From a virus: DNA of 64,000 nucleotides. The notes below the pieces were generated by a model, which was given only the letters and a program-made list of their open reading frames with translations, was not told where the DNA came from and did no database searches. Numbering within the stretch: the first letter of the stretch is position 1; every line of letters starts with the position of its first letter. Shown here piece after piece: positions 35,691-49,269 of this stretch. A program made the translations under genes and the position numbers. The stretch covers positions 32,001 to 96,000 of the IMG/VR virus record IMGVR_UViG_3300020048_003650; one strand, 5' to 3'.

Positions 35691-35887
35691 AAATAGAATC
35701 TACAACTTATCATGGCTGGACCAATCAACAGAGCGTATATCGAGTTAAAACTTACGATGATTTTATAGAAATCTCTAAATGGATGCAACTCAATGGGGTA
35801 GACAACGCACTATTGTCGTCTGGATTGAATGAATACATATTTGAAGTTCGTGATAATCATGAATGGTTTATTCTGAAATGGCTATAA
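35687..35887 (+). CDS. FxLxW-motif small protein
   Basis: ATGA overlap; ends WFILKWL. Confidence 0.7.
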   Translation: MKIESTTYHGWTNQQSVYRVKTYDDFIEISKWMQLNGVDNALLSSGLNEYIFEVRDNHEWFILKWL

Positions 35888-36054
35888 TATATCGAGCAAA
35901 GATTCCAGAAGCATGGGCAAGAGTAAAATGGTGCGAACAACAGTTTGGTCCCACAGTTTGGTGGAACTCAACGGCTCGCTGGTATCGGGATGGCGGGTAT
36001 ATATGCTTTCGTGATGAATCGGATTACGTGTTATACTTGCTAAGATGGGCATGA
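35878..36054 (+). CDS. FxLxW-motif small protein
   Basis: KWCEQQFG; ends LYLLRWA. Confidence 0.7.
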   Translation: MAIIYRAKIPEAWARVKWCEQQFGPTVWWNSTARWYRDGGYICFRDESDYVLYLLRWA

Positions 36055-36257
36055 TTATTCAATTACATAAAGAGTTTAGGATTTGGAGAGAAATGGTTCC
36101 GTGGTTGGTAGAACATTGTGGTCCAGTCTTGAATAGTAAACCTGTTGTATATTGGAGAGGACGGGAGTGGGAGTTGAGTTACGAATCGTCAAATTATTGG
36201 CAAGTGAATATAAATGACGAGAAAATGGCTACATTATTTGTATTGAGATGGTATTGA
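36045..36257 (+). CDS. FxLxW-motif small protein
   Basis: WLVEHCG; ends LFVLRWY. Confidence 0.7.
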   Translation: MGMIIQLHKEFRIWREMVPWLVEHCGPVLNSKPVVYWRGREWELSYESSNYWQVNINDEKMATLFVLRWY

Positions 36258-36258
36258 G

Positions 36259-36540
36259 ATGGGCATGACTCAATACGAACATTGGAAACGAGATCACGAT
36301 AGAACAATGGAAGAAATGGATATTCTAGCGGAATGGAAATACAAAAGATTTGTAATCGTCGATCCGGAATTACATGACTATTCTAATCATGTAATATTAC
36401 TATATGACTATTTGTATTGGTCAGATAATATTCTTGAGTTAGTTGAATGGTGTCATAATAACAACTGTAAGTTAAAGGGAATGACCATAGAAATACCAAA
36501 TGATTCTTTGCTGACTATGTTTATCTTGAGGTGGACATGA
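36259..36540 (+). CDS. FxLxW-motif small protein
   Basis: EWC...GMTIEI; ends MFILRWT; resembles 32705. Confidence 0.7.
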   Translation: MGMTQYEHWKRDHDRTMEEMDILAEWKYKRFVIVDPELHDYSNHVILLYDYLYWSDNILELVEWCHNNNCKLKGMTIEIPNDSLLTMFILRWT

Positions 36541-36737
36541 TTAAATTACCAGTAGAACCCTATTGGGTTAACGCCGCTGATTGGTGGCTGAAGAATCGCA
36601 ACAACAATAACCATGAATTCAATCTATGGTTACGTGAACAGGGTGTGCACGTTGTCAAGCGAGATAAATTTTATCCCTGGATTGAATTTCATGATTCAGT
36701 TCATGCGGTAATTTTTCAATTAAAATGGAGTGATTAG
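36537..36737 (+). CDS. FxLxW-motif small protein
   Basis: NA..WW...F..WLREQG; ends IFQLKWSD. Confidence 0.7.
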   Translation: MIKLPVEPYWVNAADWWLKNRNNNNHEFNLWLREQGVHVVKRDKFYPWIEFHDSVHAVIFQLKWSD

Positions 36738-37114
36738 TGACAACTGAACACTTCCTGTTATTAGGGTTCACACTGTTTGCCGTTAAACATTACATATGTG
36801 ATTTTGTATTGCAAACAAATGATATGATTCGGTCTAAAGGACACTGGGGTGAATGGCGGGGTATTGTACACAGCGTATATCATGGAATGGGAACTATGGT
36901 AGTCATTGGCATAATGGGATTTGGAACGGTGTCGTGCATACTCATGGGATTGCTTGACACGGTAGTACACTATCATGTTGACTGGGCAAAACAAAAACTT
37001 AATGATGCGTTAAAATACACTGTGGATAATCCTAAATTCTGGAATTTATTAGGCCTAGACCAACTGCTACACACGCTAACTTATGTCGGAATATTACTGA
37101 CGGTCACATCGTGA
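36737..37114 (+). CDS. DUF3307-like membrane protein
   Basis: KHYICDFVLQT, HS..H, HYHVDWAK, GLDQLLH. Confidence 0.75.
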   Translation: MTTEHFLLLGFTLFAVKHYICDFVLQTNDMIRSKGHWGEWRGIVHSVYHGMGTMVVIGIMGFGTVSCILMGLLDTVVHYHVDWAKQKLNDALKYTVDNPKFWNLLGLDQLLHTLTYVGILLTVTS

Positions 37115-37434
37115 TTGAAATTGATGTAGATTTAACTGTAGATACTGATTCTGAGGTGTATCAGAATGCCATTGCCTACTGGGCAAATCTCGATGAGAAC
37201 AGGAGCAAATGGAATAAAAAATGGCAGTCGGCGGTCACTGCCGCTAACGACTATAAAAACCTTGTGGTTGAACCATTTCATCAGTGGCTAGCATCTCAGG
37301 GAGCAACCGTGTCCAATAATAAAAAACCCACTGACCTCTACATGGTTGATAGCTATAACATAGCACAGGGAATAGATGTCCTGTTATTTGACACAGAACA
37401 GAATAAATTGATTTTTTTACTAAGGTGGAGTTAG
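37111..37434 (+). CDS. FxLxW-motif small protein
   Basis: NA..YW...F..WLASQG; ends IFLLRWS. Confidence 0.7.
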   Translation: MIEIDVDLTVDTDSEVYQNAIAYWANLDENRSKWNKKWQSAVTAANDYKNLVVEPFHQWLASQGATVSNNKKPTDLYMVDSYNIAQGIDVLLFDTEQNKLIFLLRWS

Positions 37435-37505
37435 TGTTGTATCTTTACAACACTATTTTTACTAAGAAAAATTTAGTTGACAATAAATCAGAGGTGTGAT
37501 ATACT
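37432..37505 (+). promoter_or_regulatory. Stem-loop plus early promoter (same element family)
   Basis: tagtgttgta-tctt-tacaacacta; TTGACA(37477)-N17-TATACT. Confidence 0.85.
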
Positions 37506-37558
37506 GTAGTTATAGTAGATAGAAATTGTTTTATCTACGAATTTAAAGGCGTTACGAC

Positions 37559-37795: not shown

Positions 37796-37878
37796 ACAAT
37801 ATTTAACTTGACAATTAATACCACTTGTGATATACTGTAGTTATAGTAGATAAACACTTAAACACACAGGGATACAAA

Positions 37879-38400
37879 ATGACTTCAAAACTTACCTCAA
37901 CAGACCCACGTATCGTTGATTTATTTAAATCGTATCATCGCCGAGTTAAATCTCGTCCACAGTTATTTAATAATAGTAACTCAATGATTACCGTTGGATT
38001 ATCGGCCGATTTGTTAGATTACGCTAATGCCGCGGCTGGTCATAGTGGCTTTGCTGCTAGTGCACGCCCAGTTGGTATTCGAGTGACCGTGAGTGATAGT
38101 ACTAAATCTCTTAAAGATATCTTTAGTTCGTGTGAATCACTGGCCGAGTTTATTAACTCAAGTGAGTGCAATGCCGCGGAGTATATTGCTAGAATTAGAG
38201 ATCGTGATTCTAAAGTATCTAATAAACCAGGCAAGAACGCAATTACAATCGATATCCGTCCAATCAAAGATGCTTTCTACGATTTAGGGTACAACTTTGA
38301 TCTAATTCAAAAACTCAAGAATACGTACGGCACTGACACCGTTAAACGTGACTGGGACAATCTTCAGGTTACAGAATTTCAACTTCGCTACGCTGTCTAA
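37879..38400 (+). CDS. Hypothetical protein at start of MTase island
   Basis: Promoter TTGACA(37808)-N17-TATACT. Confidence 0.65.
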   Translation: MTSKLTSTDPRIVDLFKSYHRRVKSRPQLFNNSNSMITVGLSADLLDYANAAAGHSGFAASARPVGIRVTVSDSTKSLKDIFSSCESLAEFINSSECNAAEYIARIRDRDSKVSNKPGKNAITIDIRPIKDAFYDLGYNFDLIQKLKNTYGTDTVKRDWDNLQVTEFQLRYAV

Positions 38401-38413
38401 CACAGGTACTGTC

Positions 38414-39370
38414 GTGATAAATAATTCGGTCGTCAACGTACTTGACACACTCAAAAAAGAAGATTACAATATTCTAATAGTTAATGCCCTTAACGGAGCG
38501 TTTCCTATTAGAGTTCGTAAAAAATATCCAAAAGCTAGAATTATCTGCGCCGAGATATTTCCATACTTCAAATCTCATCTACTCAAGTTGGGATTTGAAG
38601 TCATTGATTTTTCAATATTGACCGAAGATATGATAAAACGATTTAATGTGACTTTAGGTAATCCACCGTTTCAGGCAATGAAGTCTGATGGAGAGCGCAG
38701 TGATCAGGCTAGTAACCTGTGGAGTAAATTTTGGGTCAAGTCATTGGATATTACCAATGACAATGGAATTGTTGCTTTGGTTAGTCCAACTAGTTGGATT
38801 TCTCCTAGTTCAGAGATACGAGGCAAATGGTCTCGTAACGGCAAATCTAGATTGTGGGAGGTATTCGATCAATACGGTAGCTACGCTAATGTGACAGATG
38901 TAAAAAAACATTTTGATGGTGTGGGTTCTACATTTGGATATGTGATCGTAGATAAATCTAAAGATACTGGATTGATATTTTCAGACGGCGTGTCAACTAA
39001 ATTAGGATTTCGCGCTCATGGAGAATATGACCGAGTTGAATTGGAACTAGATCGAATAGAGAATCTTGATAAACATTTTAAGATTAATCAAGTTAATTCC
39101 CCCGGTCTAAGAGTTAGCTTTCCGTTAACCAGAACATTAACCGTTAACAGCGTAGAGATATTAACAGGACAATCGTCGCCGACTACCGGCTCTGATAAAG
39201 ATGGTTTGTATCTGTACATTCACGTGAATAATCTCACTGAAGCGGAATTGGTAAAAAACCGAATTATTGATTGTTTGGATATTTTAAATAAACTCTGCAA
39301 GTACAGTGGATTTATTAATATCCAAACAGTAAAAATGATTAAATTCTTCGATAGTGTTGTAAAAAGTTGA
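38414..39370 (+). CDS. Amino-MTase catalytic/TRD protein with degenerate SAM-binding motif (start uncertain)
   Basis: YNILIVNALNG, IICAE, LGNPPF, LWSKF, GIVALVSP.SW, HF.GVGS. Confidence 0.7.
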   Translation: MINNSVVNVLDTLKKEDYNILIVNALNGAFPIRVRKKYPKARIICAEIFPYFKSHLLKLGFEVIDFSILTEDMIKRFNVTLGNPPFQAMKSDGERSDQASNLWSKFWVKSLDITNDNGIVALVSPTSWISPSSEIRGKWSRNGKSRLWEVFDQYGSYANVTDVKKHFDGVGSTFGYVIVDKSKDTGLIFSDGVSTKLGFRAHGEYDRVELELDRIENLDKHFKINQVNSPGLRVSFPLTRTLTVNSVEILTGQSSPTTGSDKDGLYLYIHVNNLTEAELVKNRIIDCLDILNKLCKYSGFINIQTVKMIKFFDSVVKS

Positions 39371-39426
39371 CAATAAATCCCACTTGTGATATACTGTAGT
39401 TATTCTAACACATAGAGAATAGTTAA

Positions 39427-41907
39427 ATGAGTTTAAAGATTATTGGTGACAGAGCCAAGATACACTGGTTGAGTTCAACTAAATCAGTAACCTTGACCAA
39501 AGATCAGGGCGTACTCTATATCACTCAAGATGGTAAACTTGGTCAGGCAACCGTAGAGAGTTATGCCGGTCTGACTCCGGCCGAGGCATTCGTGCGTCGC
39601 TATAATGGCATGAAGTCTGCCATGAATGGTAACTTTATTGCCGATGATCTCGTGGTGATTGATAAGACGTATGGTGAGAATCATGATTATGATGATGGTG
39701 TTCGTCTACTGATTAATAAATTAAACAAGATCAATCTGATTGATTTTCGAGCTAACGTTCTATCTCAACAGACCGAAAATTCAAACAGCGAGGCACTAAT
39801 AGATTACAAGTCATCGTCGCATAGAGACGATGTTATCAATTGTATCAAACAATATCTAGGAATTAACACATACTACAATACTCACACACCATTTCAACCA
39901 CGTTACGGCCAACAGTGGGCCGTCGACGGTATTGTTAGCGGTCTCGCTCAGTATGATCGTGTGTTGTTTGCTGGCTACACGGGCGTTGGCAAGAGCAAGA
40001 TTGCCTTAGAGGCAATTCATCAGTACTATCCTGGTGGCGCTGTGATTCTTATTACCACACCTATTACCGAGACCATTACGTCATTCAAGGACGCCGTCGA
40101 TGATACAAGATTTGGCAATTCTCCAACCAGAGAGACTGTGATATATTCGACCGATAATATGCCGAGTGTCAAGAATATCAAAAACTCTGTTGCCAATGGC
40201 AATATTGTTATTGTTATTGCCACAGTACAGGATATTCGCTATCAAGACAGTTCTTCAATTACCACACCGAATAAAAAACTTCGTACAAAATACACGTCAC
40301 TGTGTCAGATAGTTGATCTATGGATTCGTGATGAGTATCATAAAGAGTACGGCGGAACAGTTACTCAGGAGGTATTCAAACATATCAAGACCAGTAAAAA
40401 ACTAGACTTGACCGCCACGCCGTATTCGGTCATTGATGAATATGATAGTGAACAGGTAATCTCACGTACACTATTGTGGGCAGTGGCAAATCGTGCTAAT
40501 ACCGGCGTGCCAAATTTTGGTATTGACTGTTTAGCCGGCTTGTTGCCAAAAAACATGAGTAAGTGGGGCGACCTATTCAGCGAGAGCGAGGGCTTTCACA
40601 GTCATAAATTGGTCGAACAATGCAGTTCAACAGGCGAGTTCGTAAACTTCGGAATCATCGAGGATATGATCGAGCGTTCATACTGTATGAATACCGTGCC
40701 TCGTAAAAAGAACGTGTTCAGCATCGGTAATGATGCTGAGTTGAGTCTTGTCGCCCGTGAAGTTGGATTGTGGATTATGCCAGAGGGAGCAAATGGCATT
40801 TCGGCATCAGACTACATTGTGTCACTGGCAGACAAATTGAATCGTTGTGGCACAATTAATAAACACGTTAAAGTTACAACGGCATATGAGATTGACGGTC
40901 TGCGTAAACAGTTAACTGTGGAAGAATATGTTAATTCAATCAAAGACCATCGTGTCTTGATTATCCTTACTCACGGTAAGTTCAAAACCGGAACTGATAT
41001 ACCCTGTTTAGGTCACATTGTATTACTAGACAAGATTAGTAATATAGCGGAGTTTGAACAAACTGTTGGTAGAATCATGCGTGTCTATCCAACTAAGGAC
41101 TACACTAAAATGTATGTGTACAGTCCAGGTGTCACCGTCAAGGAAGTAGTTACTGAGTTAGCCCATCAGAATACTAAATTGTCCACGGACGAGACCCGTA
41201 GTGAATTGGATTTCTTAAGTTGTTTTCCAATTAGCGAGTATGATGGTCTGTCTATCCAGTCTCTCGATCCAGTTACACTGTTTGAAGAGTTTAAAGAAAA
41301 ACTTAGACTCAAGAGTGCAATTGCCAACTTTAAATTGCCCAGTGAAATTCGTTCAATGATTGAGAATAATTCAGATATCGCGGACGAATTATCTTTGCTG
41401 TCTAAGAAAAATGGTAAGCGCGATGGCCTAAGTTCGGACCTTACAGAAGATAATAACTCTGAGGTTTTTGGCAACCGTAATAAAAAAAATGGCAACACGA
41501 AAAAATCAACACCAGTCAACCAAGATCAAAAAACTATCAATAATATCATTAACGGACTGGAAGAAATTTGGATAAACGTTCCGCCATTTGCCATTATTAC
41601 AGATAGTGACGACATCGTTGATGTGTTACAATGTGAACCGCTAATTGAAATGTTCGGTCATGATCATATCTATTCAGTCGTCGATGTGATGAATAATTAT
41701 CCAGACTTTAAGAAACGACTGCAACTTAGATTGAACGTGTTCTTGACTGCATTCCGTGATCTACCGCCGGAACAGTGTTACGATTCAGTATTTAAAAACT
41801 GTGATAAAAAAATGAAACAGGGATTGGTATTCACCCCGTTTAGTTTAATTGATGAATTGTTGGATAAATTGCCTATGGACAGTTACAACGCTAAATATGG
41901 ATACTAA
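39427..41907 (+). CDS. SF2 helicase / restriction-like subunit
   Basis: GYTGVGKS, DEYH, LTATP, TGTDIP, QTVGRIMR; C-terminal GLVFTP; promoter TTGACA(39367)-N17-TATACT. Confidence 0.8.
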   Translation: MSLKIIGDRAKIHWLSSTKSVTLTKDQGVLYITQDGKLGQATVESYAGLTPAEAFVRRYNGMKSAMNGNFIADDLVVIDKTYGENHDYDDGVRLLINKLNKINLIDFRANVLSQQTENSNSEALIDYKSSSHRDDVINCIKQYLGINTYYNTHTPFQPRYGQQWAVDGIVSGLAQYDRVLFAGYTGVGKSKIALEAIHQYYPGGAVILITTPITETITSFKDAVDDTRFGNSPTRETVIYSTDNMPSVKNIKNSVANGNIVIVIATVQDIRYQDSSSITTPNKKLRTKYTSLCQIVDLWIRDEYHKEYGGTVTQEVFKHIKTSKKLDLTATPYSVIDEYDSEQVISRTLLWAVANRANTGVPNFGIDCLAGLLPKNMSKWGDLFSESEGFHSHKLVEQCSSTGEFVNFGIIEDMIERSYCMNTVPRKKNVFSIGNDAELSLVAREVGLWIMPEGANGISASDYIVSLADKLNRCGTINKHVKVTTAYEIDGLRKQLTVEEYVNSIKDHRVLIILTHGKFKTGTDIPCLGHIVLLDKISNIAEFEQTVGRIMRVYPTKDYTKMYVYSPGVTVKEVVTELAHQNTKLSTDETRSELDFLSCFPISEYDGLSIQSLDPVTLFEEFKEKLRLKSAIANFKLPSEIRSMIENNSDIADELSLLSKKNGKRDGLSSDLTEDNNSEVFGNRNKKNGNTKKSTPVNQDQKTINNIINGLEEIWINVPPFAIITDSDDIVDVLQCEPLIEMFGHDHIYSVVDVMNNYPDFKKRLQLRLNVFLTAFRDLPPEQCYDSVFKNCDKKMKQGLVFTPFSLIDELLDKLPMDSYNAKYGY

Positions 41908-42934
41908 GATGATTGACAAGTTAAGCGATAAAGACTACAATATCTTAGTGATAAATGCACTTAACGGCACATTTGCAATTAAACTCAGACAGCGGTATCC
42001 ACGTGCCAGAATTATCTGTGCCGAGATGTTCTCTTACTACGGAGAACACCTGACTAAACTGGGTTTTGAAGTTATCGACTACAAAGACTTGGACAAGAGT
42101 ATGAGATTTGATGTAATAGCCGGAAATCCTCCTTATCTTAAAGGAAAATGGATAGAGTTTTTAAAACGTTCTATCGAACTTTCCAATAAACACGTTCTGA
42201 TGATTTCTCCAGACGGAACGAATAATTTTTCCACTCGCTCTGATAAATTGATCAGTTTTCTTAAGGAAAATGGAATTCAATCAAAAGTTGAATGCACTGA
42301 TTCTTTCCCTACTGTTCTTAGCGGCAAGATTGTCACTTATTTTTTGGATAAAAGTAAACCTGGAAATTCAGATATCTTTGACCCAGTTGATGATCTTGGA
42401 CGACTGTTAAAACAAGTTATCCCGAATTCCAGAAAAAGTTTTCGGGGCGGCTATGAATTTATGGAACCAAAAGTAAAAGGAATTAAGCGTAACAAGAACA
42501 AGGACGTTCTGCCAAGTAATGATTCACAATCGTCAGAATATTCTCAACGAGTAATTGTGGGTGTCACCAGAAAAGGAATCATCGAACGATATTTTGCTGA
42601 ACAATCTAGCGAGAGTCAGGCTACGGAACTAGGGTTTGTCATAAATCGCTCATTCGGACAAGGGTCCAATAAAGACGTTTATTTGGTAGATTCACAGAAT
42701 ACACAATTTACCAATAATGTCATTTGGTTCGAGGCATATCCTGGAGAGACTGTGGAATCATTCTTATCAGTTTTTGGTAGTAATCTTTACGGCGAATTAC
42801 TTACTCGTTTACGTAATGGTTCCATGGATATTCGAGCAACTCATCTTCAGGCATTGCCATGTCCGCCGCTAACTCGTGTGTATTCTGAACAAGAAGTCCA
42901 CAATTTTGTTAAAAATCAACAAAAATATGGCTAA
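41897..42934 (+). CDS. Amino-MTase catalytic/TRD protein with degenerate SAM-binding motif
   Basis: YNILVINALNG, IICAE, FDVIAGNPPY; paralog of 38414. Confidence 0.72.
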   Translation: MDTKMIDKLSDKDYNILVINALNGTFAIKLRQRYPRARIICAEMFSYYGEHLTKLGFEVIDYKDLDKSMRFDVIAGNPPYLKGKWIEFLKRSIELSNKHVLMISPDGTNNFSTRSDKLISFLKENGIQSKVECTDSFPTVLSGKIVTYFLDKSKPGNSDIFDPVDDLGRLLKQVIPNSRKSFRGGYEFMEPKVKGIKRNKNKDVLPSNDSQSSEYSQRVIVGVTRKGIIERYFAEQSSESQATELGFVINRSFGQGSNKDVYLVDSQNTQFTNNVIWFEAYPGETVESFLSVFGSNLYGELLTRLRNGSMDIRATHLQALPCPPLTRVYSEQEVHNFVKNQQKYG

Positions 42935-42985
42935 AGCCATACAAAATCACTTGACACCGATCAACTATTAGAGTACAATAGTCAC

Positions 42986-43516
42986 ATGAACATTGAAACT
43001 ATTATCAAACATTTACGTGAACGTGAATACATGTCGGGCGTTGACCGTGACAAAACTCGTGTAAAAGCGACCGGCGAAGTCTACACTCCAACTCCTCTTG
43101 TACAAGAGATCCTCCATCAAATACCACAAGATCAATTTCAGGATCCCACTAAGACATTCTTAGACCCGACCTGTGGTGACGGTCAGTTCTTGAGTGAAAT
43201 CATTATCAAGAAGATCGAATCTGGTTCAACATACGAACAGGCACTCTCAACTACCTATGGCGTTGATTTAATGCCAGATAACTGCCGTGAGTGTATCAGG
43301 CGATTGTACGGCGCCCTGGGTGAGCCTGTTATTGAAACCCTAGAAAATGGAGATATCCCCCTGGAGTGGCAGCGTGATGGCGTCATCGCGGTATTCAGGG
43401 TGAACGGCACAATCTGTAACATTGTCTGTGCAGACGGACTTAAATATGACTACAGTTTTGGTGAATTGCCTGAGCCAGAGGTGTTTGGCAATTCGCTATT
43501 CGAAATAGGAGCATGA
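42986..43516 (+). CDS. Stand-alone SAM-binding half of an N6-adenine MTase
   Basis: GEVYTP (X), FLDPTCGDG (I), GVDL (II), CADGL (III); no NPPY. Confidence 0.78.
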   Translation: MNIETIIKHLREREYMSGVDRDKTRVKATGEVYTPTPLVQEILHQIPQDQFQDPTKTFLDPTCGDGQFLSEIIIKKIESGSTYEQALSTTYGVDLMPDNCRECIRRLYGALGEPVIETLENGDIPLEWQRDGVIAVFRVNGTICNIVCADGLKYDYSFGELPEPEVFGNSLFEIGA

Positions 43517-44535
43517 ATTCATTACTAAACTACATTGGTCACAAGTCAAAAAATATGAATAATTTTTACGTTCTAAAACGTGATGTGCTATCAATGAACA
43601 AGATCAATGAACTAGTTGACCTTGTTTATATCGATCCTCCATTTAATTTGAGTCGAAGATTTGAAATGGAAGGTGGTAGCGGATTTGATGATTATTGGAA
43701 AAATGATGATGAATACTTAGATTGGTATGCGTCTATTATCACTGGATGTTATAATGTCCTGGGTAAGAACGGGACCATCTATTGTCATAATAACTTTATA
43801 AATAACGCATTGGTTCTTTCGAGAGTGTCGGAAAAAATTAGAAAATCATTCGATACCAATATTTCTTGGAAACGTAGTCACCCTCACAATAACATCAAAA
43901 ATGGTTGGGGTAATATTACAGACAGTATTATTGTTTTTAAAAAGGGAAAACCATATTTTCAGCCAGAATACACTGAGTTAAATGAGAACTACAAAACTGG
44001 TAGTTTTAATAACTGTGATAGTCGCGGAAACTATAGTTTGAGTCCTATTACAGGAGAGAAATCACGATTGGGTCATATGTACACGTTTAATGGATACACA
44101 CCCACTTATGGTTGGCGTAAGACTCTCGAGGATGTTCAAATTCTACACGAACAAAATATGATTCATTATGGAGATAATAAACCATATATGAAAAAATATT
44201 TAAACGAAAGTAAGGGTGTGCCAGTTCAAAATTTTTGGAACGATATACATCCTATCACCAGAAGTGAGAAGAATAAGCGTGAGTACCCAACACAAAAACC
44301 AACATTGTTACTGGAGCGTATTATCAGAGCTAGTTGCCCTGTAAATGGTTTGGTTTTTGACCCGTTCTGTGGTAGCGGAACTACAATGATGGCCACAGTT
44401 AATGTTGGAAATAGACGTTGTATCACAAGCGATCTAAATGATGAAGCTCTACAATTATGTAAAAATTCTCTACAACAACTATTAATATTCCCCGATATTG
44501 ACGGAGAAAATATTTGGCCTACGTCCCAGTTATGA
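43513..44535 (+). CDS. Beta-class N4/N6 DNA methyltransferase
   Basis: YIDPPF, YPTQKP..LL.RII, DPFCGSGTT; N-terminal MNSLLNYIGHKSK stub. Confidence 0.9.
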   Translation: MNSLLNYIGHKSKNMNNFYVLKRDVLSMNKINELVDLVYIDPPFNLSRRFEMEGGSGFDDYWKNDDEYLDWYASIITGCYNVLGKNGTIYCHNNFINNALVLSRVSEKIRKSFDTNISWKRSHPHNNIKNGWGNITDSIIVFKKGKPYFQPEYTELNENYKTGSFNNCDSRGNYSLSPITGEKSRLGHMYTFNGYTPTYGWRKTLEDVQILHEQNMIHYGDNKPYMKKYLNESKGVPVQNFWNDIHPITRSEKNKREYPTQKPTLLLERIIRASCPVNGLVFDPFCGSGTTMMATVNVGNRRCITSDLNDEALQLCKNSLQQLLIFPDIDGENIWPTSQL

Positions 44536-44606
44536 TACTGATAAAAATAATTTATTTTTCTTTGAAAACACTTGACAGTATTAACAGACTATAGTATAAT
44601 ATCTGA

Positions 44607-45425
44607 ATGAGATTTGATGTAATAGCCGGAAATCCTCCATTTAATATTTCTAGTGATAGCGAAAACACTATTGCTGGAACCAGTGGCAATACTACACTTT
44701 ACAAAAAGTTTATTGACATTAGTTTATCATTATCAGACACTGTGGCTATGGTGGTTCAACGTAATGGAGTCAGATATGCCGACAAAAAATCAGGCGGTGT
44801 GAGTAAATATTGTCTTGACACTACTCAGCACTGGAATTTTAACACTGGGTGGTTTATCACTAATAAGTCAGACACATCAGTAGAGAACTGTTCTAAGAAT
44901 CAGATTATCAAAAAAATATATTTATTAGAACAACAGTGGAATTACTCGGCCCCACTCAGCGGAAGTTATTCTAAGAATATCGATAAGAAGTTTTGGCTAA
45001 AATCCAATGGTCAAGATGTTTATGGAATAGTTGACACTCCAACGAAGGATTTCGACGAATGTCGATACGGATATTTTGAATCACCGTATCGTAGTGGTTC
45101 ACAACTGATATTCAAGGGATTGGAAAGTATCAACAGTTATGTGGTGACTGATGAGTTTACCAAGGCAGGCAGTACGGCTGTATTGTTTTTTGACACAATT
45201 GAACAGGCTCATTTGGCAAAGAAATTTATTCTTAACAATCTTGTGATTAAATATTTAAAATCAATAATTCATGAAAAGACACTGGGTATGGTATTTAGAT
45301 ATCTACGAAAGTTTGATTTGAATCAAATAAAGACTGGTTATGAATATCCCGTGGAATGGAATCTAAGTGAACAAGACATTGAAAAAATAGAAAACAATCA
45401 ATCAAAGTTATCCAAAATTACTTGA
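44607..45425 (+). CDS. Stand-alone catalytic/TRD half of an amino-MTase
   Basis: Begins MRFDVIAGNPPF; LYKKFI; no motif I; promoter TTGACA(44572)-N17-TATAAT(44595). Confidence 0.72.
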   Translation: MRFDVIAGNPPFNISSDSENTIAGTSGNTTLYKKFIDISLSLSDTVAMVVQRNGVRYADKKSGGVSKYCLDTTQHWNFNTGWFITNKSDTSVENCSKNQIIKKIYLLEQQWNYSAPLSGSYSKNIDKKFWLKSNGQDVYGIVDTPTKDFDECRYGYFESPYRSGSQLIFKGLESINSYVVTDEFTKAGSTAVLFFDTIEQAHLAKKFILNNLVIKYLKSIIHEKTLGMVFRYLRKFDLNQIKTGYEYPVEWNLSEQDIEKIENNQSKLSKIT

Positions 45426-45540
45426 CACCGATCAACTATCATAGTACAATGTCTGTGCGAACGGACTTAAATATGACTACAGTTTTGGCGAATTGCCAGA
45501 ATCAGAGATCATTGGAAATGGTCTGTTTGAAATCGGATAA
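45422..45540 (+). pseudogene. Deletion remnant of a 42986 paralog
   Basis: Near-identical promoter to 42951 fused to VCANGLKYDYSFGELPESEIIGNGLFEIG*. Confidence 0.85.
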
Positions 45541-45594
45541 TCCTAGTTTTACTTAGATAAATACTCTATCTTTACTGGATTAATCGAGGTCAAA

Positions 45595-47064
45595 ATGAAA
45601 ATAACAGAAGTTATACAAGAGTCGGAATCAAAATTAAAATCAAGAGTTAAAAGAGCGATTGATAAACTAGATGATTCTGATGCGGAACAGATTCAGACTC
45701 TAAATCACGTAAAAAATGTTATTTATGACAGTGTATTGCAAAAAACATTTAATGAAAGTGACATCCAGTCTAGATGTCGTCCTATTGCGTACGAATGGTT
45801 CAAGGCTGCGTTAGAACGGATCGGTGTTCCTCTCGAAGATAAGGTATATCTGATAAAATTGATGGGAGACGAAAGATATTTAATTCCTGAAGAAATATAT
45901 CAGAAAAATACCAATGGCAACTTGTTAAATCACGTAAGCGACAAGATAAGAACAAACTCGGCGTTCAAGGAATTGGCTAGCCCGTTGTGGAAATATAAAA
46001 TAGGTGGCCAGGGCGGAATGGGACCTGGTGAGTTGTTTATGTCGCTTTTTTCAAAAAACGGCAAGGAAGGAGAAGGCAAAAAAGGAGGAGATGTCACAGT
46101 CGGAAGTTGGAAAATAGAACTGAAGCAGGGAGGAGTCGTTCCGCCCGGTGACACCAAAAATACAGGATTAGTTGATAAGTTAAACAAAAATCTATTGGAT
46201 ATTGCAAAAAAAGAAAACTTTTTAGATAGATTAGATTTAAAATCGTCTGCTGGAAAAGATAATCCCAACAATTTAAGTTCTGGATGGATTCCTCAGTTTT
46301 TTAAAACATACACTGAACTTCACGATGAGTCATCATCTAAAAAAATACTTACTAAATATCTAACGGATTTGTATGGAAGTTCGGCACGTGCATATGCCGA
46401 TTTGACTTTTGATAACTTAGGTAAACCCGGAGCAGAAAGAGTATTAGCTCCGATGATTTTAGATATGTATAAGGATTCCCACGAGTGGGATAGTATTTGT
46501 TTTGTTGATGAAAACTTTAAATTCATTAACCTGGTTACCTTTGAAAATATACCAAATGATCTTAAGTTTTCACTGAAACTGAAAAGAGGAGGAGATACTA
46601 ATGCTGTTGCCGACGGTTACATGGTTGTCGGTTTTAATAATGACAAAAAACAATCTTCAACTAAGAATAACAAAAAAATAGACAATAAATCAACTATACA
46701 AACATCTAAGAAAAATGACGGTGATGTAAAAAACAAAAACATACCATCTGACAATAAAAAGATTCAACCTCCAGTTCCAGAAAAAACCGCCAAACAACAG
46801 GCAAAAGATCAGGTCAGAGATTCTAAAATTAATGATATGATCAATCTTATCAAAACTGAACCTTCAAAACCATTATCGGTTGCGATTAAGAAAACTATTG
46901 GTATGAATCCTACCATAAATCAACTTGAAATAATAGGTGATGTTATTGATGACATGGAATCCGGAGTCTCTGTCGATCAAATTATCGCCGACCGGTCCGG
47001 ACCAGAAAATTTTTATGAATCATCAATGCAGTTAATGGGAATAAAACGTCTACTCCAATTTTAA
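45595..47064 (+). CDS. Late protein with PD-(D/E)xK nuclease-like core
   Basis: GPGELF...GDV...IELK; GATAAATA at 45556; N-terminus MKITEVIQE. Confidence 0.55.
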   Translation: MKITEVIQESESKLKSRVKRAIDKLDDSDAEQIQTLNHVKNVIYDSVLQKTFNESDIQSRCRPIAYEWFKAALERIGVPLEDKVYLIKLMGDERYLIPEEIYQKNTNGNLLNHVSDKIRTNSAFKELASPLWKYKIGGQGGMGPGELFMSLFSKNGKEGEGKKGGDVTVGSWKIELKQGGVVPPGDTKNTGLVDKLNKNLLDIAKKENFLDRLDLKSSAGKDNPNNLSSGWIPQFFKTYTELHDESSSKKILTKYLTDLYGSSARAYADLTFDNLGKPGAERVLAPMILDMYKDSHEWDSICFVDENFKFINLVTFENIPNDLKFSLKLKRGGDTNAVADGYMVVGFNNDKKQSSTKNNKKIDNKSTIQTSKKNDGDVKNKNIPSDNKKIQPPVPEKTAKQQAKDQVRDSKINDMINLIKTEPSKPLSVAIKKTIGMNPTINQLEIIGDVIDDMESGVSVDQIIADRSGPENFYESSMQLMGIKRLLQF

Positions 47065-47128
47065 AATATCTGACTATTTTGGATAATATTATCTTGACTT
47101 TCATGTGCCTATAACATATAATAGATAC

Positions 47129-48061
47129 ATGTCAAAATATAAAAAACCTCTGTTTATGTGGGCCGGCGGCAAAACTAAAATGATCAAGTTTTATGATCAG
47201 AGTCGAATAATGCCAACTACAGTCAACCGATACATTGAACCATTCTTTGGTGGCGGAGCAATGTACATCGAAGTGATGGAAAGATTTAATCCAAAGATAT
47301 CAATTATCAACGATATAAATTCCAGTATAGTTAAAATTTATCAATCTATCAAAACTGATTATGATAATTTTATTATTCATCTGGATCGATTATGTGTTAA
47401 ATATCTAGCCATGAACACCGTTGATCGTAAAACGTTTTATTACGAGGTTAGAAATTTACACGCGTATCATTATCAAAATTGGAGTAGTACTCAAGAATCC
47501 GCTACTCTTTACTTTTTGATGAAAACTGGATTCAACGGAATATGGCAATGTAATCAAAATACAAATGGTAGATTTGGAACACCTAGTGGCCTATTGAATC
47601 AGAAAGACAGAGTCTATGATGTGGACGTAATCAAATATTGGAATAATATTCTTCAATCATCCATTATTTTAAATCAAGATTGCAAATCTGTTTTATCACA
47701 ATATCCAGACGTAGACGATAGTTTTTATTTTTTAGACCCTCCATATAGAGGGAGTTTTACTCATTACAGTCAAACTTTCACAGATCAAGACCAAACAGAT
47801 TTGTTAACCTTCGCCAAATCTGTCTCGTCTAATAGTAGGATATTATTGTGTAATGATGACGTTGGAGATAATTTTTTTCAGAATCAAATAGGTTCTCTTC
47901 AAATAGAGTCATACAATCTAAAACATACAGCGGGCCGTAGAAAAAAAACTGATGATGGATTTATCGCAAAGTCGGTAACGGAAATAGTCATTCATAACTC
48001 ATCGAACATAAAATCCACATCGGAATCTTTTGGAAACGACCTATTCGAAATCGGCGCATGA
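47129..48061 (+). CDS. Dam-like (D12 class) adenine methyltransferase
   Basis: PLFMWAGGK, EPFFGGGA, INDIN, GFNG, FLDPPY, TEIVI.N. Confidence 0.92.
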   Translation: MSKYKKPLFMWAGGKTKMIKFYDQSRIMPTTVNRYIEPFFGGGAMYIEVMERFNPKISIINDINSSIVKIYQSIKTDYDNFIIHLDRLCVKYLAMNTVDRKTFYYEVRNLHAYHYQNWSSTQESATLYFLMKTGFNGIWQCNQNTNGRFGTPSGLLNQKDRVYDVDVIKYWNNILQSSIILNQDCKSVLSQYPDVDDSFYFLDPPYRGSFTHYSQTFTDQDQTDLLTFAKSVSSNSRILLCNDDVGDNFFQNQIGSLQIESYNLKHTAGRRKKTDDGFIAKSVTEIVIHNSSNIKSTSESFGNDLFEIGA

Positions 48062-48099
48062 ATTCATTACTGAACTACATTGGTCATAAATCAAAATGA
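48058..48099 (+). pseudogene. 13-codon dam-like stub MNSLLNYIGHKSK
   Basis: Overlaps both neighbours by ATGA. Confidence 0.75.
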
Positions 48100-49001
48100 A
48101 ACATGATTACAGATTAGGCGATTGTTTTGAACATCTCGCCTCTATACAGGACAACTCGGTCGATCTATGTCTAACCGACCCGCCATACTTTATAGATGGA
48201 TTGGGCGATGAATGGGACACTGATAAAATTAAAGCCAGTATTTCGACCAACGCCACGTCTACCATCAAGTCCTTGCCAGTTGGTATGAAGTTTGACCCAT
48301 CTCAAGGTCCACGTTTTCAAGAATTCATGGAACGAGTCTCCACGGAAGTATTTAGAGTTCTTAAACCTGGCGGATTTTATGTTGCTTTCAGTCAAGCGAG
48401 ACTGTATCATCGACTGGGCATTGCCGTTGAAAATTGCGGATTTGAAATTAGAGACATGTTAGGCTGGACTTATCAGGGACAAGCCAAAGCATTTAGTCAA
48501 GATCATATCATTCGTAAGCAAAAAAACTTAACCGAAGACGAAAAGACCTCACTGATAAAAGAGTTAGATGGCTGGAAAACTCCACAATTAAAACCCTGTA
48601 TCGAACCGATGACTTTGGCACAAAAACCCATAGAGGGTAAGTTTATCGATAATTGGCAAAAGTGGGGTGTGGGGTTAATTAACACTAATCAGCGTTGGGA
48701 CGACAGTTTTCCTGGAAATATTATCGGGTGTAATAAGCCCACCAAAAAAGAAAAGGGAGATTACAATAATCATGTGAGTGTTAAGCCTCTAGAGTTATGT
48801 GAGCATTTAATAAAACTTTTAACCAGAGAAAACGCCATCGTTCTGGATCCATTTTTAGGTTCAGGTACTACGCTAATAGCCGCTGAAAATACTCAACGCA
48901 GATGTATTGGATTTGAATTATCATCTGAGTACTTTGATATTATACAACGTAGGCTAAGTACGGCGACCCATTATAATAAAATTTTAGGATTTGATAGTTG
49001 A
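48096..49001 (+). CDS. Beta-class N4/N6 DNA methyltransferase
   Basis: LTDPPY, H.SVKP..L..LI, DPFLGSGTT, IGFE. Confidence 0.92.
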   Translation: MKHDYRLGDCFEHLASIQDNSVDLCLTDPPYFIDGLGDEWDTDKIKASISTNATSTIKSLPVGMKFDPSQGPRFQEFMERVSTEVFRVLKPGGFYVAFSQARLYHRLGIAVENCGFEIRDMLGWTYQGQAKAFSQDHIIRKQKNLTEDEKTSLIKELDGWKTPQLKPCIEPMTLAQKPIEGKFIDNWQKWGVGLINTNQRWDDSFPGNIIGCNKPTKKEKGDYNNHVSVKPLELCEHLIKLLTRENAIVLDPFLGSGTTLIAAENTQRRCIGFELSSEYFDIIQRRLSTATHYNKILGFDS

Positions 49002-49205
49002 ATGAACTCACTTCTCAACTACATTGGTCACAAGTCAAAAATCGTCAACCAAATCAAGATGTATTTGCCTGAGACTGTTATTGAACTGGCTAAAAAATAT
49101 CGAAAATGGGCAAGCGCTGGCAACAAAACCGTAGAGCGTGGCTCTAAAATCAATCGAGAAGTCTTAGTACTATCATATCGGTCGCCAATAATTCAAATCG
49201 TTTAA
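49002..49205 (+). pseudogene. Internally deleted Dam-like MTase
   Basis: Dam-type N-terminus LLNYIGHKSKIVNQI..YLP joined to C-terminal EVLVLSY; catalytic motifs missing. Confidence 0.7.
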
Positions 49206-49269
49206 TACCAATTACACTTGACAATAAATCACAACTATGATACAATGTAGTTATTGTGAGGTAAATTCT

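What the first reader, a model, noticed from the sequence alone, without database searches (positions are those of the whole stretch)
38414..45540. Naturally split amino-methyltransferase: one SAM-binding subunit, three catalytic/specificity subunits
Seen: 42986 has motifs X, I, II and III (GEVYTP, DPTCGDG, GVDL, CADGL) and ends before motif IV. 44607 starts at the motif IV strand (MRFDVIAGNPPF) and has no motif I. 38414 and 41897 carry NPPF/NPPY and dissimilar C-terminal regions, but only a decayed motif I (NALNG). The unit [catalytic gene]-[promoter plus SAM-half gene] occurs twice (41897/42986 and 44607/remnant at 45451). Known: gamma-class MTases carry X-I-II-III-IV-TRD in one chain. Inference: a two-chain MTase in which one SAM module serves several exchangeable recognition modules, widening anti-restriction methylation.
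Basis: partly seen in the sequence, partly recalled or inferred. Interest (0 to 1): 0.85.

Follow-up and report, generated by a model that had tools for sequence, protein, structure and literature searches.

The report
Two-piece phage DNA adenine methylase
A large phage builds at least one of its DNA-marking enzymes from two separately encoded pieces, a small cofactor-binding half and a catalytic, DNA-reading half. This design is widespread in phages but unannotated, and it shows how such enzymes get their parts reordered in evolution.

Summary
42986-43516 encodes motifs X-I-II-III only. 44607-45425 starts exactly at motif IV. 38414 and 41897 carry NPPF/NPPY behind a 'NALNG' N-half. A promoter plus SAM-half unit occurs twice, the second copy gutted by a ~440-nt deletion.

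The split is real and old.
- The SAM-half belongs to a family of 5,406 protein clusters (PHROG 'unknown function').
- It usually lies just behind Eco57I/TaqI-type methylase genes.
- 'Bare' catalytic genes starting at motif IV recur, for example Prochlorococcus phage P-SSM2 genes 036/037.
- Rare single-chain fusions exist (P0121, P0122, Aeromonas phage Aeh1 ORF084c). A model of one matches beta-class methylases over both halves.

So 44607 plus 42986 is most likely a two-chain enzyme with gamma-type sequence and beta-type order.

The reading 'one SAM half completes three catalytic halves' is only partly supported.
- 41897 is predicted to have a complete Rossmann fold of its own.
- NALNG is an invariant subfamily signature, not decay.
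- SAM-half genes also follow methylases with intact X and I motifs.
- A complex prediction of 41897 with 42986 gave only weak support.

The scan has noted the same module on other genomes. I found no paper on it.

The parts
38414..39370 (+). Methylase A: gamma-type N6-adenine MTase with a NALNG-type N-half, NPPF at 38660 and its own TRD. No SAM-half gene follows it directly.
   Evidence: ORF and motifs. Pfam Eco57I 31.1 bits, E 3e-7. NALNG/CAE are invariant in alignment A2.
39427..41907 (+). SF2 helicase (826 aa). Its C-terminus carries a motif-X-like GLVFTP helix. It corresponds to the N-terminal ~800 aa of the 1130-1177-aa helicase-methylase fusions of relatives.
   Evidence: Pfam ResIII and Helicase_C. 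Junction sequence. Fused relatives L009, L018, L022 and L023.
41897..42934 (+). Methylase B: NALNG-type N-half, NPPY at 42125 and a TRD. It is the methylase piece of a helicase-methylase that has split into two genes.
   Evidence: AF2 pLDDT 83, pTM 0.76, with strands b1-b7. Foldseek best hits are CamA, M.TaqI and M.BseCI. P0134 is 96% identical from MRFD onward but has a canonical N-half.
42951..42979 (+). Promoter-like site TTGACA-17-TACAAT, ending 6 nt before the ATG of the SAM-half gene.
   Evidence: 11 of 12 matches. Repeat family D5.
42986..43516 (+). SAM-half: a stand-alone cofactor-binding subunit with motifs X, I, II and III, then YDYSFGE and the tail FGNSLFEIGA.
   Evidence: (phrog_4376). 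The profile aligns to CamA residues 18-152. It is 51% identical to residues 281-449 of the fusion P0122.
43513..44535 (+). Independent beta-class N6/N4 methylase (DPPF ... FDPFCGSGTT) lying between the SAM-half and C. It is a neighbour, not a subunit.
   Evidence: Pfam N6_N4_Mtase, E 4.7e-38.
44572..44600 (+). Perfect consensus promoter-like site TTGACA-17-TATAAT, ending 6 nt before the ATG of C.
   Evidence: 12 of 12 matches. Sequence.
44607..45425 (+). Methylase C: a 'bare' catalytic plus TRD subunit starting at strand b4 / motif IV (MRFDVIAGNPPF). It has no SAM-binding half.
   Evidence: It aligns end to end with homologues that start at the same residue. It maps on residues 1-259 of the beta-order fusion P0122 and 310-576 of the gamma-order P0194.
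45404..45537 (+). Second copy of the promoter plus SAM-half unit. It is reduced by an internal deletion to the promoter and the last 29 codons, so it is a non-functional remnant.
   Evidence: Repeat families D5 and D3. tblastn 83% identity, E 8e-12. Sequence.
42101..42132 (+). 32 nt identical to 44607-44638 (MRFDVIAGNPP). This is the module joint between the N-half and the catalytic/TRD part.
   Evidence: Repeat family D6, 100% identity.

Best explanation
42986 encodes a trans-acting cofactor (SAM)-binding half-subunit: motif X helix, strands b1-b3, and a short tail. 44607 encodes the complementary half: strand b4 with NPPF, strands b5-b7, and a TaqI/CamA-like target-recognition domain.

The two chains assemble into one Rossmann-fold N6-adenine DNA methyltransferase. 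Its parts are ordered as in beta-class enzymes (IV-VIII, TRD, then X-I-II-III). Its sequences are of the gamma (Eco57I/TaqI) type. Each gene has its own consensus promoter.

The copy of the SAM-half gene that once followed 44607 has been deleted. In the sequence held, 42986 is therefore the only cofactor half available to 44607.

38414 and 41897 are single-chain gamma-type methylases of a conserved 'NALNG' subfamily, with a complete fold of their own. 41897 is the methylase piece of a helicase-methylase that has split into two genes. Genes of this subfamily are regularly followed by a SAM-half gene, so they may also bind 42986 (about even odds). If they do, it is not because their sheet is incomplete.

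Shown: sequence anatomy, conservation, gene neighbourhoods, natural fusions and predicted folds. Inferred: assembly, SAM binding, activity and sharing.
For: 1. The stand-alone SAM-half family is large and conserved.
- 5,406 clusters of 96-308 aa, against 12 longer proteins.
- The SAM-binding residues E31, T34, P35, G64, G66 and F68 are invariant in 35 diverse members.
- 66 SAM-halves and 63 in-chain N-halves need only 2 label changes on a tree (shuffled mean 43). The window's protein lies in a clade of 51 SAM-halves with SH-aLRT 99.

2. Natural fusions link the two halves.
- P0121, P0122, P0128-P0131, P0204, P0214, P0224 and Aeh1 ORF084c start at motif IV and end with the SAM-half.
- C maps on P0122 residues 1-259 and the SAM-half on residues 281-449.

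3. The P0122 model (pLDDT 87.6, pTM 0.85) aligns in sequence order to beta-class methylases over model residues 1 to 390-454:
- M.MboIIA: Z 11.8, rmsd 3.4, 152 aligned.
- CcrM: Z 10.6.
- M.RsrI: Z 10.2.
- M.PvuII: Z 10.0.
- Gamma-class CamA, TaqI and BseCI match only residues 1-244 (Z 6.3-7.8).

4. Bare catalytic genes are a recurrent form.
- 16 representatives. C is full length against them.
- L010-L013 and P-SSM2 036/037 pair a 193-aa bare gene with an overlapping 132-133-aa SAM-half gene.

5. C has a 12-of-12 consensus promoter.

6. The held genome record has three Eco57I-type genes, one intact SAM-half gene and one remnant.

7. For A and B:
- B alone is predicted as a complete fold and is TaqI/CamA-like.
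- NALNG-type genes were followed by a SAM-half gene in all 9 loci fetched with a NALNG query, which are 4 distinct arrangements.
- The complete genomes of S-SKS1 and S-CAM7 hold 1+1 and 2+2 adjacent pairs. The cat genes inspected in each are not bare, and no stand-alone bare cat gene was seen.
- Complex prediction of B with the SAM-half and SAM gave weak support. The score was 0.52 and the best of 3 controls was 0.01. This mark was reached by 58 of 80 solved complexes and 2 of 110 mismatched pairs. At 0.60 or under, only 7 of those 80 solved complexes reached it, as did both mismatches that passed. The runs share at least 63% of contacts. Partner pLDDT is at least 80. No interface was given.
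Against: - No direct test of assembly or activity was possible.
- The fold evidence is from the homologue P0122 (29% and 51% identical to the window's two proteins), not from the window's own pair.
- The record is only about 30% complete by CheckV. Other SAM-half genes or partners may lie elsewhere.
- The island holds real debris (remnant 45446-45537, 13-codon ORF at 48058, truncated ORF 49002-49205), so decay is active here.
- SAM-half genes also follow methylases with intact X and I motifs, 7 of 14. The small protein may therefore have a role beyond replacing a missing half.
- 4 of 12 bare genes in the survey had no SAM-half gene within about 4 kb.
Confidence: 0.62

Rival explanations
1. One SAM-half is the obligatory cofactor subunit of all three catalytic/specificity proteins (A, B and C). 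The NALNG N-halves are structural relics that no longer bind SAM.
For: - NALNG-type genes were followed by a SAM-half gene in all 9 loci fetched, often with overlapping stop and start.
- In S-SKS1 the only Eco57I-type gene has a degenerate N-half and the only SAM-half gene overlaps it.
- Arrays with 2-3 catalytic genes and one SAM-half gene recur: L041, L047, L055 and L074.
- Complex prediction of B with the SAM-half gave weak support. The score was 0.52 against a best control of 0.01. The mark was reached by 58 of 80 solved complexes and 2 of 110 mismatched pairs. At 0.60 or under only 7 of those 80 reached it, as did both passing mismatches. Runs share at least 63% of contacts. Partner pLDDT is at least 80.
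Against: - B alone is predicted with a complete b1-b7 sheet. Its N-half has pLDDT above 90.
- N20, A21, L22, G24, C41 and E43 of the N-half are invariant. E43 sits at the motif II position of the ribose-binding acid. This fits a working pocket.
- SAM-half presence does not track loss of X or I motifs: X+I 7 of 14, I only 19 of 52, neither 16 of 28.
- A has no SAM-half gene next to it.
Confidence: 0.28
2. Recent accident. 42986 and 44607 are the two ends of one ordinary gamma-order gene. It was cut in two by insertion of the beta-class methylase cassette 43513-44535, and the pieces may or may not still work.
For: - The gene order is SAM-half, insert, bare gene.
- SAM-half directly followed by a bare gene occurs in L052 and L077.
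- The junction 'tail plus MNSLLNYIGHKSK start' recurs at 43484, 48029 and 48973, which shows cassette recombination.
Against: - The SAM-half ends with the stop and tail typical of thousands of stand-alone homologues.
- C starts at the residue typical of bare homologues.
- The promoter plus SAM-half unit was duplicated as a separate gene, as the remnant behind C shows.
- Both genes have their own consensus promoters.
- So the split predates any insertion.
Confidence: 0.08
3. Debris. 44607 and/or 42986 are non-functional fragments in a fast-recombining methylase island.
For: - The island contains a deleted SAM-half copy, a 13-codon ORF at 48058 and a truncated D12-like ORF at 49002-49205.
- The exact 32-nt repeat marks recent recombination.
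Against: - Both ORFs are intact and full length against large families.
- All family-invariant residues are present.
- C has a perfect promoter.
- The same two-gene layout occurs in the cultured phage P-SSM2.
Confidence: 0.06
4. The SAM-half has another job and does not complete a catalytic fold. Examples are a SAM buffer or carrier, a regulator of the neighbouring methylase, or an anti-defence SAM binder.
For: - It also follows methylases that look complete.
- It is fused to unrelated N-terminal regions in P0123, P0125, P0126 and P0127.
Against: - Fusions to bare catalytic parts fold as complete beta-order methylases.
- Bare catalytic genes would have no cofactor site without it.
Confidence: 0.06

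Closest known systems
Gamma-class N6-adenine DNA methyltransferases M.TaqI, CamA and M.BseCI (Pfam Eco57I PF07669 / N6_Mtase PF02384)
   Same: - NPPY/F catalytic motif.
- A TaqI-like TRD behind the catalytic half. The B model's best matches are CamA, TaqI and BseCI.
- The SAM-half profile aligns to CamA residues 18-152.
- The TRD part of the P0122 model matches TaqI residues 97-411.
   Different: - Those enzymes carry X-I-II-III-IV-TRD in one chain.
- Here the SAM half is a separate gene for C.
- A and B have an atypical NALNG motif I.
- For B, motif X sits on the helicase gene.
Beta-class amino-methyltransferases (M.MboIIA, M.RsrI, CcrM, M.PvuII; Pfam N6_N4_Mtase PF01555)
   Same: - The order is catalytic half, TRD, then X-I-II-III.
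- The fused homologue's model aligns in sequence order over both halves (Z 10-11.8).
   Different: - There is no sequence membership in PF01555. The hits are Eco57I and N6_Mtase.
- The TRD is TaqI-like.
- The window's version is two chains.
M.AquI and M.EcoHK31I, natural two-polypeptide C5-cytosine methyltransferases (cited in PMC5944983, PMC3404938 and PMC2836561)
   Same: One methyltransferase fold is encoded as two separate polypeptides.
   Different: - Those are C5 enzymes, split late in the fold (from my own knowledge: around motifs VIII-IX).
- They are single known cases.
- Here the enzyme is an amino-methyltransferase split between motifs III and IV. The family has thousands of members, and several catalytic genes can accompany one cofactor gene.
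Permutation-by-duplication model for DNA methyltransferases (Jeltsch 1999, as cited in PMC5944983)
   Same: All the stages that the model needs are extant within one family:
- Gamma-order single chains (P0194, L143).
- A full gene followed by a SAM-half gene.
- Degenerate or deleted N-halves.
- Bare gene plus SAM-half gene.
- Beta-order fusions.
   Different: - The model assumes an in-frame tandem fusion that is then trimmed.
- Here the intermediate is a stable two-gene, two-chain state.
Type ISP restriction-modification enzymes LlaGI / LlaBIII
   Same: Relatives of the helicase plus B are single chains of 1130-1177 aa, with an SF2 motor followed by a gamma-type methylase and TRD.
   Different: - No nuclease domain was detected.
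- The motor and the methylase are separate genes here.
- An extra SAM-half gene follows.
- A sequence search of the PDB with the helicase returned only a weak UvsW match.
Type I HsdM/HsdS logic
   Same: A constant part is combined with exchangeable specificity parts.
   Different: In Type I the catalytic motif and the SAM site stay together in HsdM. Here the catalytic motif travels with the TRD, and only the cofactor half is constant.

Membership tests
Gamma-class N6-adenine DNA MTase (TaqI/CamA/Eco57I type) | Catalytic (N/D)PP(Y/F) motif after strand b4 | tested here: met
   NPPF at 38660, NPPY at 42125 and NPPF at 44631.
Gamma-class N6-adenine DNA MTase (TaqI/CamA/Eco57I type) | Motifs X-I-II-III-IV-...-TRD in that order in one chain | tested here: not met
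   C lacks X-III, and the SAM-half lacks IV onward. A and B have I'-II'-III'-IV-TRD in one chain but no FTP motif X. For B, motif X lies on the helicase ORF.
Gamma-class N6-adenine DNA MTase (TaqI/CamA/Eco57I type) | Sequence and fold similarity to family members | tested here: met
   Pfam Eco57I: A 31.1 bits, B 24.7 and C 24.5, against a cut-off of 25.3. N6_Mtase on the SAM-half: 20.6 against 20.4. The B model matches CamA, TaqI and BseCI at Foldseek E about 1e-9, TM 0.54-0.61.
Beta-class amino-MTase (PF01555) | Order IV-VIII, TRD, X-I-II-III, with a complete fold | tested here: met
   Met for the fused homologues P0122, P0121 and Aeh1 ORF084c. The P0122 model aligns to MboIIA, CcrM, RsrI and PvuII over residues 1 to 390-454. 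For the window's own pair this is inferred from 29% and 51% identity.
Beta-class amino-MTase (PF01555) | Sequence membership in Pfam N6_N4_Mtase | tested here: not met
   No PF01555 hit for A, B, C or the SAM-half at E up to 0.1. Only the unrelated neighbour 43513-44535 hits it.
Natural two-polypeptide DNA MTases (M.AquI / M.EcoHK31I type) | Both polypeptides are required for activity and associate | not testable with these tools
   Inferred from fusions, gene pairing and folds.
Natural two-polypeptide DNA MTases (M.AquI / M.EcoHK31I type) | C5-cytosine chemistry | tested here: not met
   The NPPF/NPPY amino-MTase motif and Eco57I/N6_Mtase hits show this is not a C5 enzyme.
Type ISP R-M enzyme (LlaGI/LlaBIII) | Single chain with nuclease, SF2 motor, gamma MTase and TRD | tested here: not met
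   In the window the motor (39427-41907) and the MTase (41897-42934) are separate overlapping ORFs in different frames. Relatives are fused.
Type ISP R-M enzyme (LlaGI/LlaBIII) | N-terminal Mrr/PD-(D/E)xK nuclease domain | tested here: inconclusive
   Pfam and NCBIfam show only helicase domains. The first ~150 residues are unassigned. No fold was predicted for them.

The most novel reading that the evidence does not exclude
The SAM-half is a common, exchangeable cofactor subunit. In one phage it activates several different catalytic/specificity subunits: bare ones, ones with their own N-half, and helicase-coupled ones. That would give a combinatorial multi-specificity methylase system.

The same family preserves, as living genes, every stage of the gamma-to-beta circular permutation: single chain, gene plus half-gene, decayed N-half, bare plus half, and re-fused.
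Probability: 0.33. Interest if true: 0.8.

Novelty: new variant of a known kind. Interest (0 to 1): 0.66.

Why it matters
1. Annotation. A family of more than 5,000 protein clusters is annotated as hypothetical (PHROG 'unknown function'). It would be the cofactor subunit of phage adenine methylases. Its partners that start at NPPY look like truncated pseudogenes to annotation pipelines. Phage methylase repertoires, including those of model cyanophages such as P-SSM2, would then be under-called.

2. Evolution. Natural split amino-methyltransferases have not, to my knowledge or in the papers I could search, been described. Only C5 cases (M.AquI, M.EcoHK31I) are cited. One family holding gamma-order, split and beta-order forms makes the long-standing permutation model directly testable.

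3. Engineering. Targeted-methylation tools rely on artificially bisected methylases (PMC2836561, PMC3439449, PMC3404938). Naturally evolved halves could be better parts.

4. Phage biology. The joint at motif IV seems to be a recombination point for swapping recognition domains. It carries an exact 32-nt repeat, and B's TRD is 96% identical to a protein with a different N-half. This bears on how phages keep up with host restriction systems.

Tried and rejected
- Megablast of 38000-48100 against phage genomes found no match.
Contexts of the closest protein relatives (P0007, P0122) could not be read.
- I tested the idea that a SAM-half gene accompanies only methylases lacking motif X or I. It was rejected. 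It follows 7 of 14 genes with both motifs, including clear GEVFTP plus DPCMGKGTF cases: L107, L110, L113 and L122. The motif classes were set by regular expressions and flanks of about 4-5 kb, so the counts are rough.
- I considered that the tail FGNSLFEIGA is a leftover of strand b4 or a docking peptide. This is unresolved. The Dam-type methylase 47105-48061 carries the same tail, probably through recombination at the 68-nt junction repeat.
- I considered that the helicase/B boundary is a sequencing frameshift. This is unlikely. About 12 codons are duplicated on both sides, and L017 is split at the same place.
- PDB sequence searches gave little. The helicase returned only a weak UvsW match. 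45595-47064 returned nothing meaningful.
- NCBIfam gave only far sub-threshold hits.
- Five full-text literature searches found no paper on a split phage amino-methyltransferase or on this small family. Bujnicki 2002 was not held.

Full report
**Setting.** The window is bases 32001-96000 of a 104.5-kb IMG/VR virus record. CheckV rates the record about 30% complete, so it is probably a jumbo phage. Bases 38-50 kb form a methylase island on the + strand:
- A: 38414-39370.
- An 826-aa SF2 helicase: 39427-41907.
- B: 41897-42934.
- The 176-aa SAM-half: 42986-43516.
- A beta-class N6/N4 methylase: 43513-44535.
- C: 44607-45425.
- A remnant: 45446-45537.
- An unknown 489-aa gene.
- A D12/Dam methylase: 47105-48061.
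- A second beta-class methylase: 48096-49001.
- A truncated D12-like ORF: 49002-49205.

**Observation.**
- The promoter plus SAM-half unit is duplicated. 42933-42979 matches 45404-45450 at 87%, and 43419-43510 matches 45446-45537 at 82%.
- The second copy has lost about 440 nt between the -10 box and codon ~146.
- A 32-nt stretch encoding MRFDVIAGNPP is identical in B and at the start of C.

**The SAM-half is a real, old, stand-alone protein.**
- It has 5,406 cluster-level homologues of 96-308 aa, against only 12 longer proteins.
- It matches PHROG phrog_4376, 'unknown function'.
- In 35 diverse members the motif X and motif I residues are invariant. The C-terminal YDYSFGE plus a short aromatic tail is conserved.
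- On a tree of 66 SAM-halves and 63 in-chain N-halves the label changes only twice (shuffled mean 43). The window's protein lies in a clade of 51 SAM-halves with SH-aLRT 99.
- It is therefore not a set of recent truncations of neighbouring genes.

**Its partner genes.**
- In the 11 IMG/VR loci found with the SAM-half, an NPPY gene precedes it in all, immediately in nine. The same holds in S-CAM7 and S-SKS1.
- In L010-L013 and in the cultured Prochlorococcus phage P-SSM2 (genes 036/037), that gene is 193 aa and starts MKFTLAIGNPPY, just as C starts MRFDVIAGNPPF. The 132-133-aa SAM-half gene overlaps its end.
- A full HMMER scan with C found 87 representatives. They include 16 bare forms, forms with N-terminal extensions, four helicase fusions, and forms with a C-terminal SAM-half.
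- C aligns end to end with the bare forms.

**Natural fusions and fold.**
- P0121, P0122, P0128-P0131, P0204, P0214, P0224 and Aeromonas phage Aeh1 ORF084c begin at motif IV and end with the SAM-half.
- C maps on P0122 residues 1-259 and the SAM-half on residues 281-449. On the gamma-order single chain P0194 the SAM-half maps first (208-282) and C second (310-576).
- The AF2 model of P0122 is confident (pLDDT 87.6, pTM 0.85).
- Its best structural matches are beta-class methylases, aligned in sequence order over model residues 1 to 390-454 (MboIIA Z 11.8, CcrM 10.6, RsrI 10.2, PvuII 10.0).
- Gamma-class CamA, TaqI and BseCI match only the catalytic/TRD part, residues 1-244 (Z 6.3-7.8).
- So the catalytic part plus the SAM-half make one complete methylase fold, with beta order and gamma-type sequence.
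- By homology, C plus 42986 is the two-chain version. This step is inferred.

**Expression signals.**
- C has a 12-of-12 consensus promoter ending 6 nt before its ATG.
- The SAM-half has TTGACA-17-TACAAT at the same spacing.
- These are consensus matches, not proof of use.

**A and B.**
- Their N-half (…ILVINALNG…RIICAE…LGFEV…) is not random decay. N20, A21, L22, G24, I39, C41 and E43 are invariant in 21 homologues.
- B alone is predicted with all seven strands. The N-half has pLDDT above 90.
- The B model resembles CamA, M.TaqI and M.BseCI. Its Rossmann sheet does not need completing.
- B's part from MRFD onward is 96% identical to P0134, which has a canonical motif I N-half. Together with the 32-nt repeat, this marks motif IV as a module joint.
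- The helicase plus B equals the 1130-1177-aa helicase-methylase fusions of relatives (L009, L018, L022, L023). The helicase C-terminus keeps the motif X helix, GLVFTP.
- All 9 loci fetched with a NALNG query (4 distinct arrangements) have a SAM-half gene directly downstream.
- The complete genomes of S-SKS1 and S-CAM7 hold 1+1 and 2+2 adjacent pairs. The cat genes I inspected there are not bare.
- This argues that the small protein also works with N-half-bearing enzymes.
- The complex prediction of B with the SAM-half and SAM gave weak support:
  - The score was 0.52 and the best of 3 controls was 0.01.
  - The mark was reached by 58 of 80 solved complexes and 2 of 110 mismatched pairs.
  - At 0.60 or under it was reached by only 7 of those 80, and by both mismatches that passed.
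  - The runs agree in at least 63% of contacts. Partner pLDDT is at least 80. No interface was reported.

**A wider survey cautions against a simple complementation story.** It covered 119 distinct catalytic ORFs in loci fetched with catalytic-gene queries.
- A SAM-half gene lies directly downstream of 54 ORFs, upstream of 7, and elsewhere in the locus for 8.
- It follows 7 of 14 genes with intact X and I, 19 of 52 with I only, 16 of 28 with neither, and 4 of 12 bare genes (4 more have it nearby).
- Arrays with several catalytic genes and one SAM-half gene recur: L041, L047, L055 and L074. This matches the window's three-to-one layout.
- What the small protein does for enzymes that look complete is unexplained.

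**Evolution.** One family holds all of the following forms:
- Gamma-order single chains (P0194; L143, whose N-half reads …NIVC.NSLTFDY… directly before MKFDVIVGNPPY).
- A full gene followed by a SAM-half gene.
- Degenerate N-halves (NALNG, FNLEF and other types).
- Bare gene plus SAM-half gene.
- Beta-order fusions.

This is the series expected from permutation by duplication and trimming (Jeltsch 1999, as cited in PMC5944983). Here a stable two-gene stage stands in the middle.

**Novelty.**
- Five full-text searches found no description. Cited natural split methylases are C5 enzymes (M.AquI, M.EcoHK31I).
- Earlier notes of this scan describe the same small gene behind helicase-methylases in other genomes, and point to Type ISP enzymes as the nearest known machines. 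Those are unchecked AI notes. My results agree with them.
- This window adds four things: a bare catalytic gene with its own promoter, the deleted second SAM-half copy, the beta-class fold match of a natural fusion, and the cultured examples P-SSM2 036/037 and Aeh1 ORF084c.

**Limits.**
- There are no activity or binding data.
- The genome record is incomplete.
- Motif classes were set by regular expressions.
- Flanks were about 4-5 kb.

Noticed in passing
43484-43551, 48029-48096, 48973-49040: A 68-nt junction recurs three times. It encodes the SAM-half's tail (…FGNxLFEIGA, stop) overlapping an ATG that starts MNSLLNYIGHKSK. As a result the unrelated Dam-type methylase 47105-48061 ends with the same tail as the SAM-half. 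At 48058 the start is a 13-codon ORF. At 49002-49205 it heads a truncated D12-like methylase remnant. These look like cassette recombination scars.
   Followed up: partly
45595-47064: A 489-aa protein with no Pfam or PHROG match lies behind the promoter copy and the SAM-half remnant. The ESM Atlas gives only viral hypothetical clusters, with weak leads (0.77-0.78) to restriction-endonuclease families. The sequence has a GGDV…KIELK stretch that resembles a PD-(D/E)xK motif. It may be a nuclease inside the methylase island.
   Followed up: partly
35863-37434: Five tandem small ORFs (63-107 aa) all end in a hydrophobic stretch plus LRW[ASTY] or LKWSD. This is a paralogous mini-family of unknown function just upstream of the island.
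   Followed up: no
42951-42986, 44572-44607, 47094-47129: Three consensus promoter-like sites end exactly 6 nt before an ATG: the SAM-half, C, and an internal Met of the Dam ORF. This suggests leaderless or near-leaderless transcripts.
   Followed up: no
38442-38470 and 41913-41941: TTGACA-17-TACAAT (11 of 12 matches) also lies inside the 5' coding regions of A and B, at homologous codons (LDT…DYN / IDK…DYN). These could be internal promoters or a by-product of the coding sequence.
   Followed up: no
41849-41960: The helicase and methylase B overlap in different frames. About 12 codons seem duplicated on both sides (…LIDELLDKLPMDSYN… against MIDKLSDKDYN…). This suggests gene fission by a short duplication. 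L017 is split at the same point.
   Followed up: partly
37474-37513, 37805-37844, 39364-39403, 49215-49254: A family of four 40-nt early-promoter-like repeats (TTGACAAT…TGTGATATACTGTAGTTAT) lies ahead of the island's genes.
   Followed up: no
13069-18600 (- strand): A 1843-aa ORF lies on the opposite strand, in a stretch of higher G+C (0.45-0.48 against about 0.38). It was not examined.
   Followed up: no
P0123, P0124, P0125, P0126, P0127 (proteins): The SAM-half module also occurs fused to unrelated parts. These include a long low-complexity N-terminal region, an N6_N4 methylase domain (echoing the window's 42986/43513 adjacency), and repeats reading GPAV…W…G…HR.
   Followed up: no
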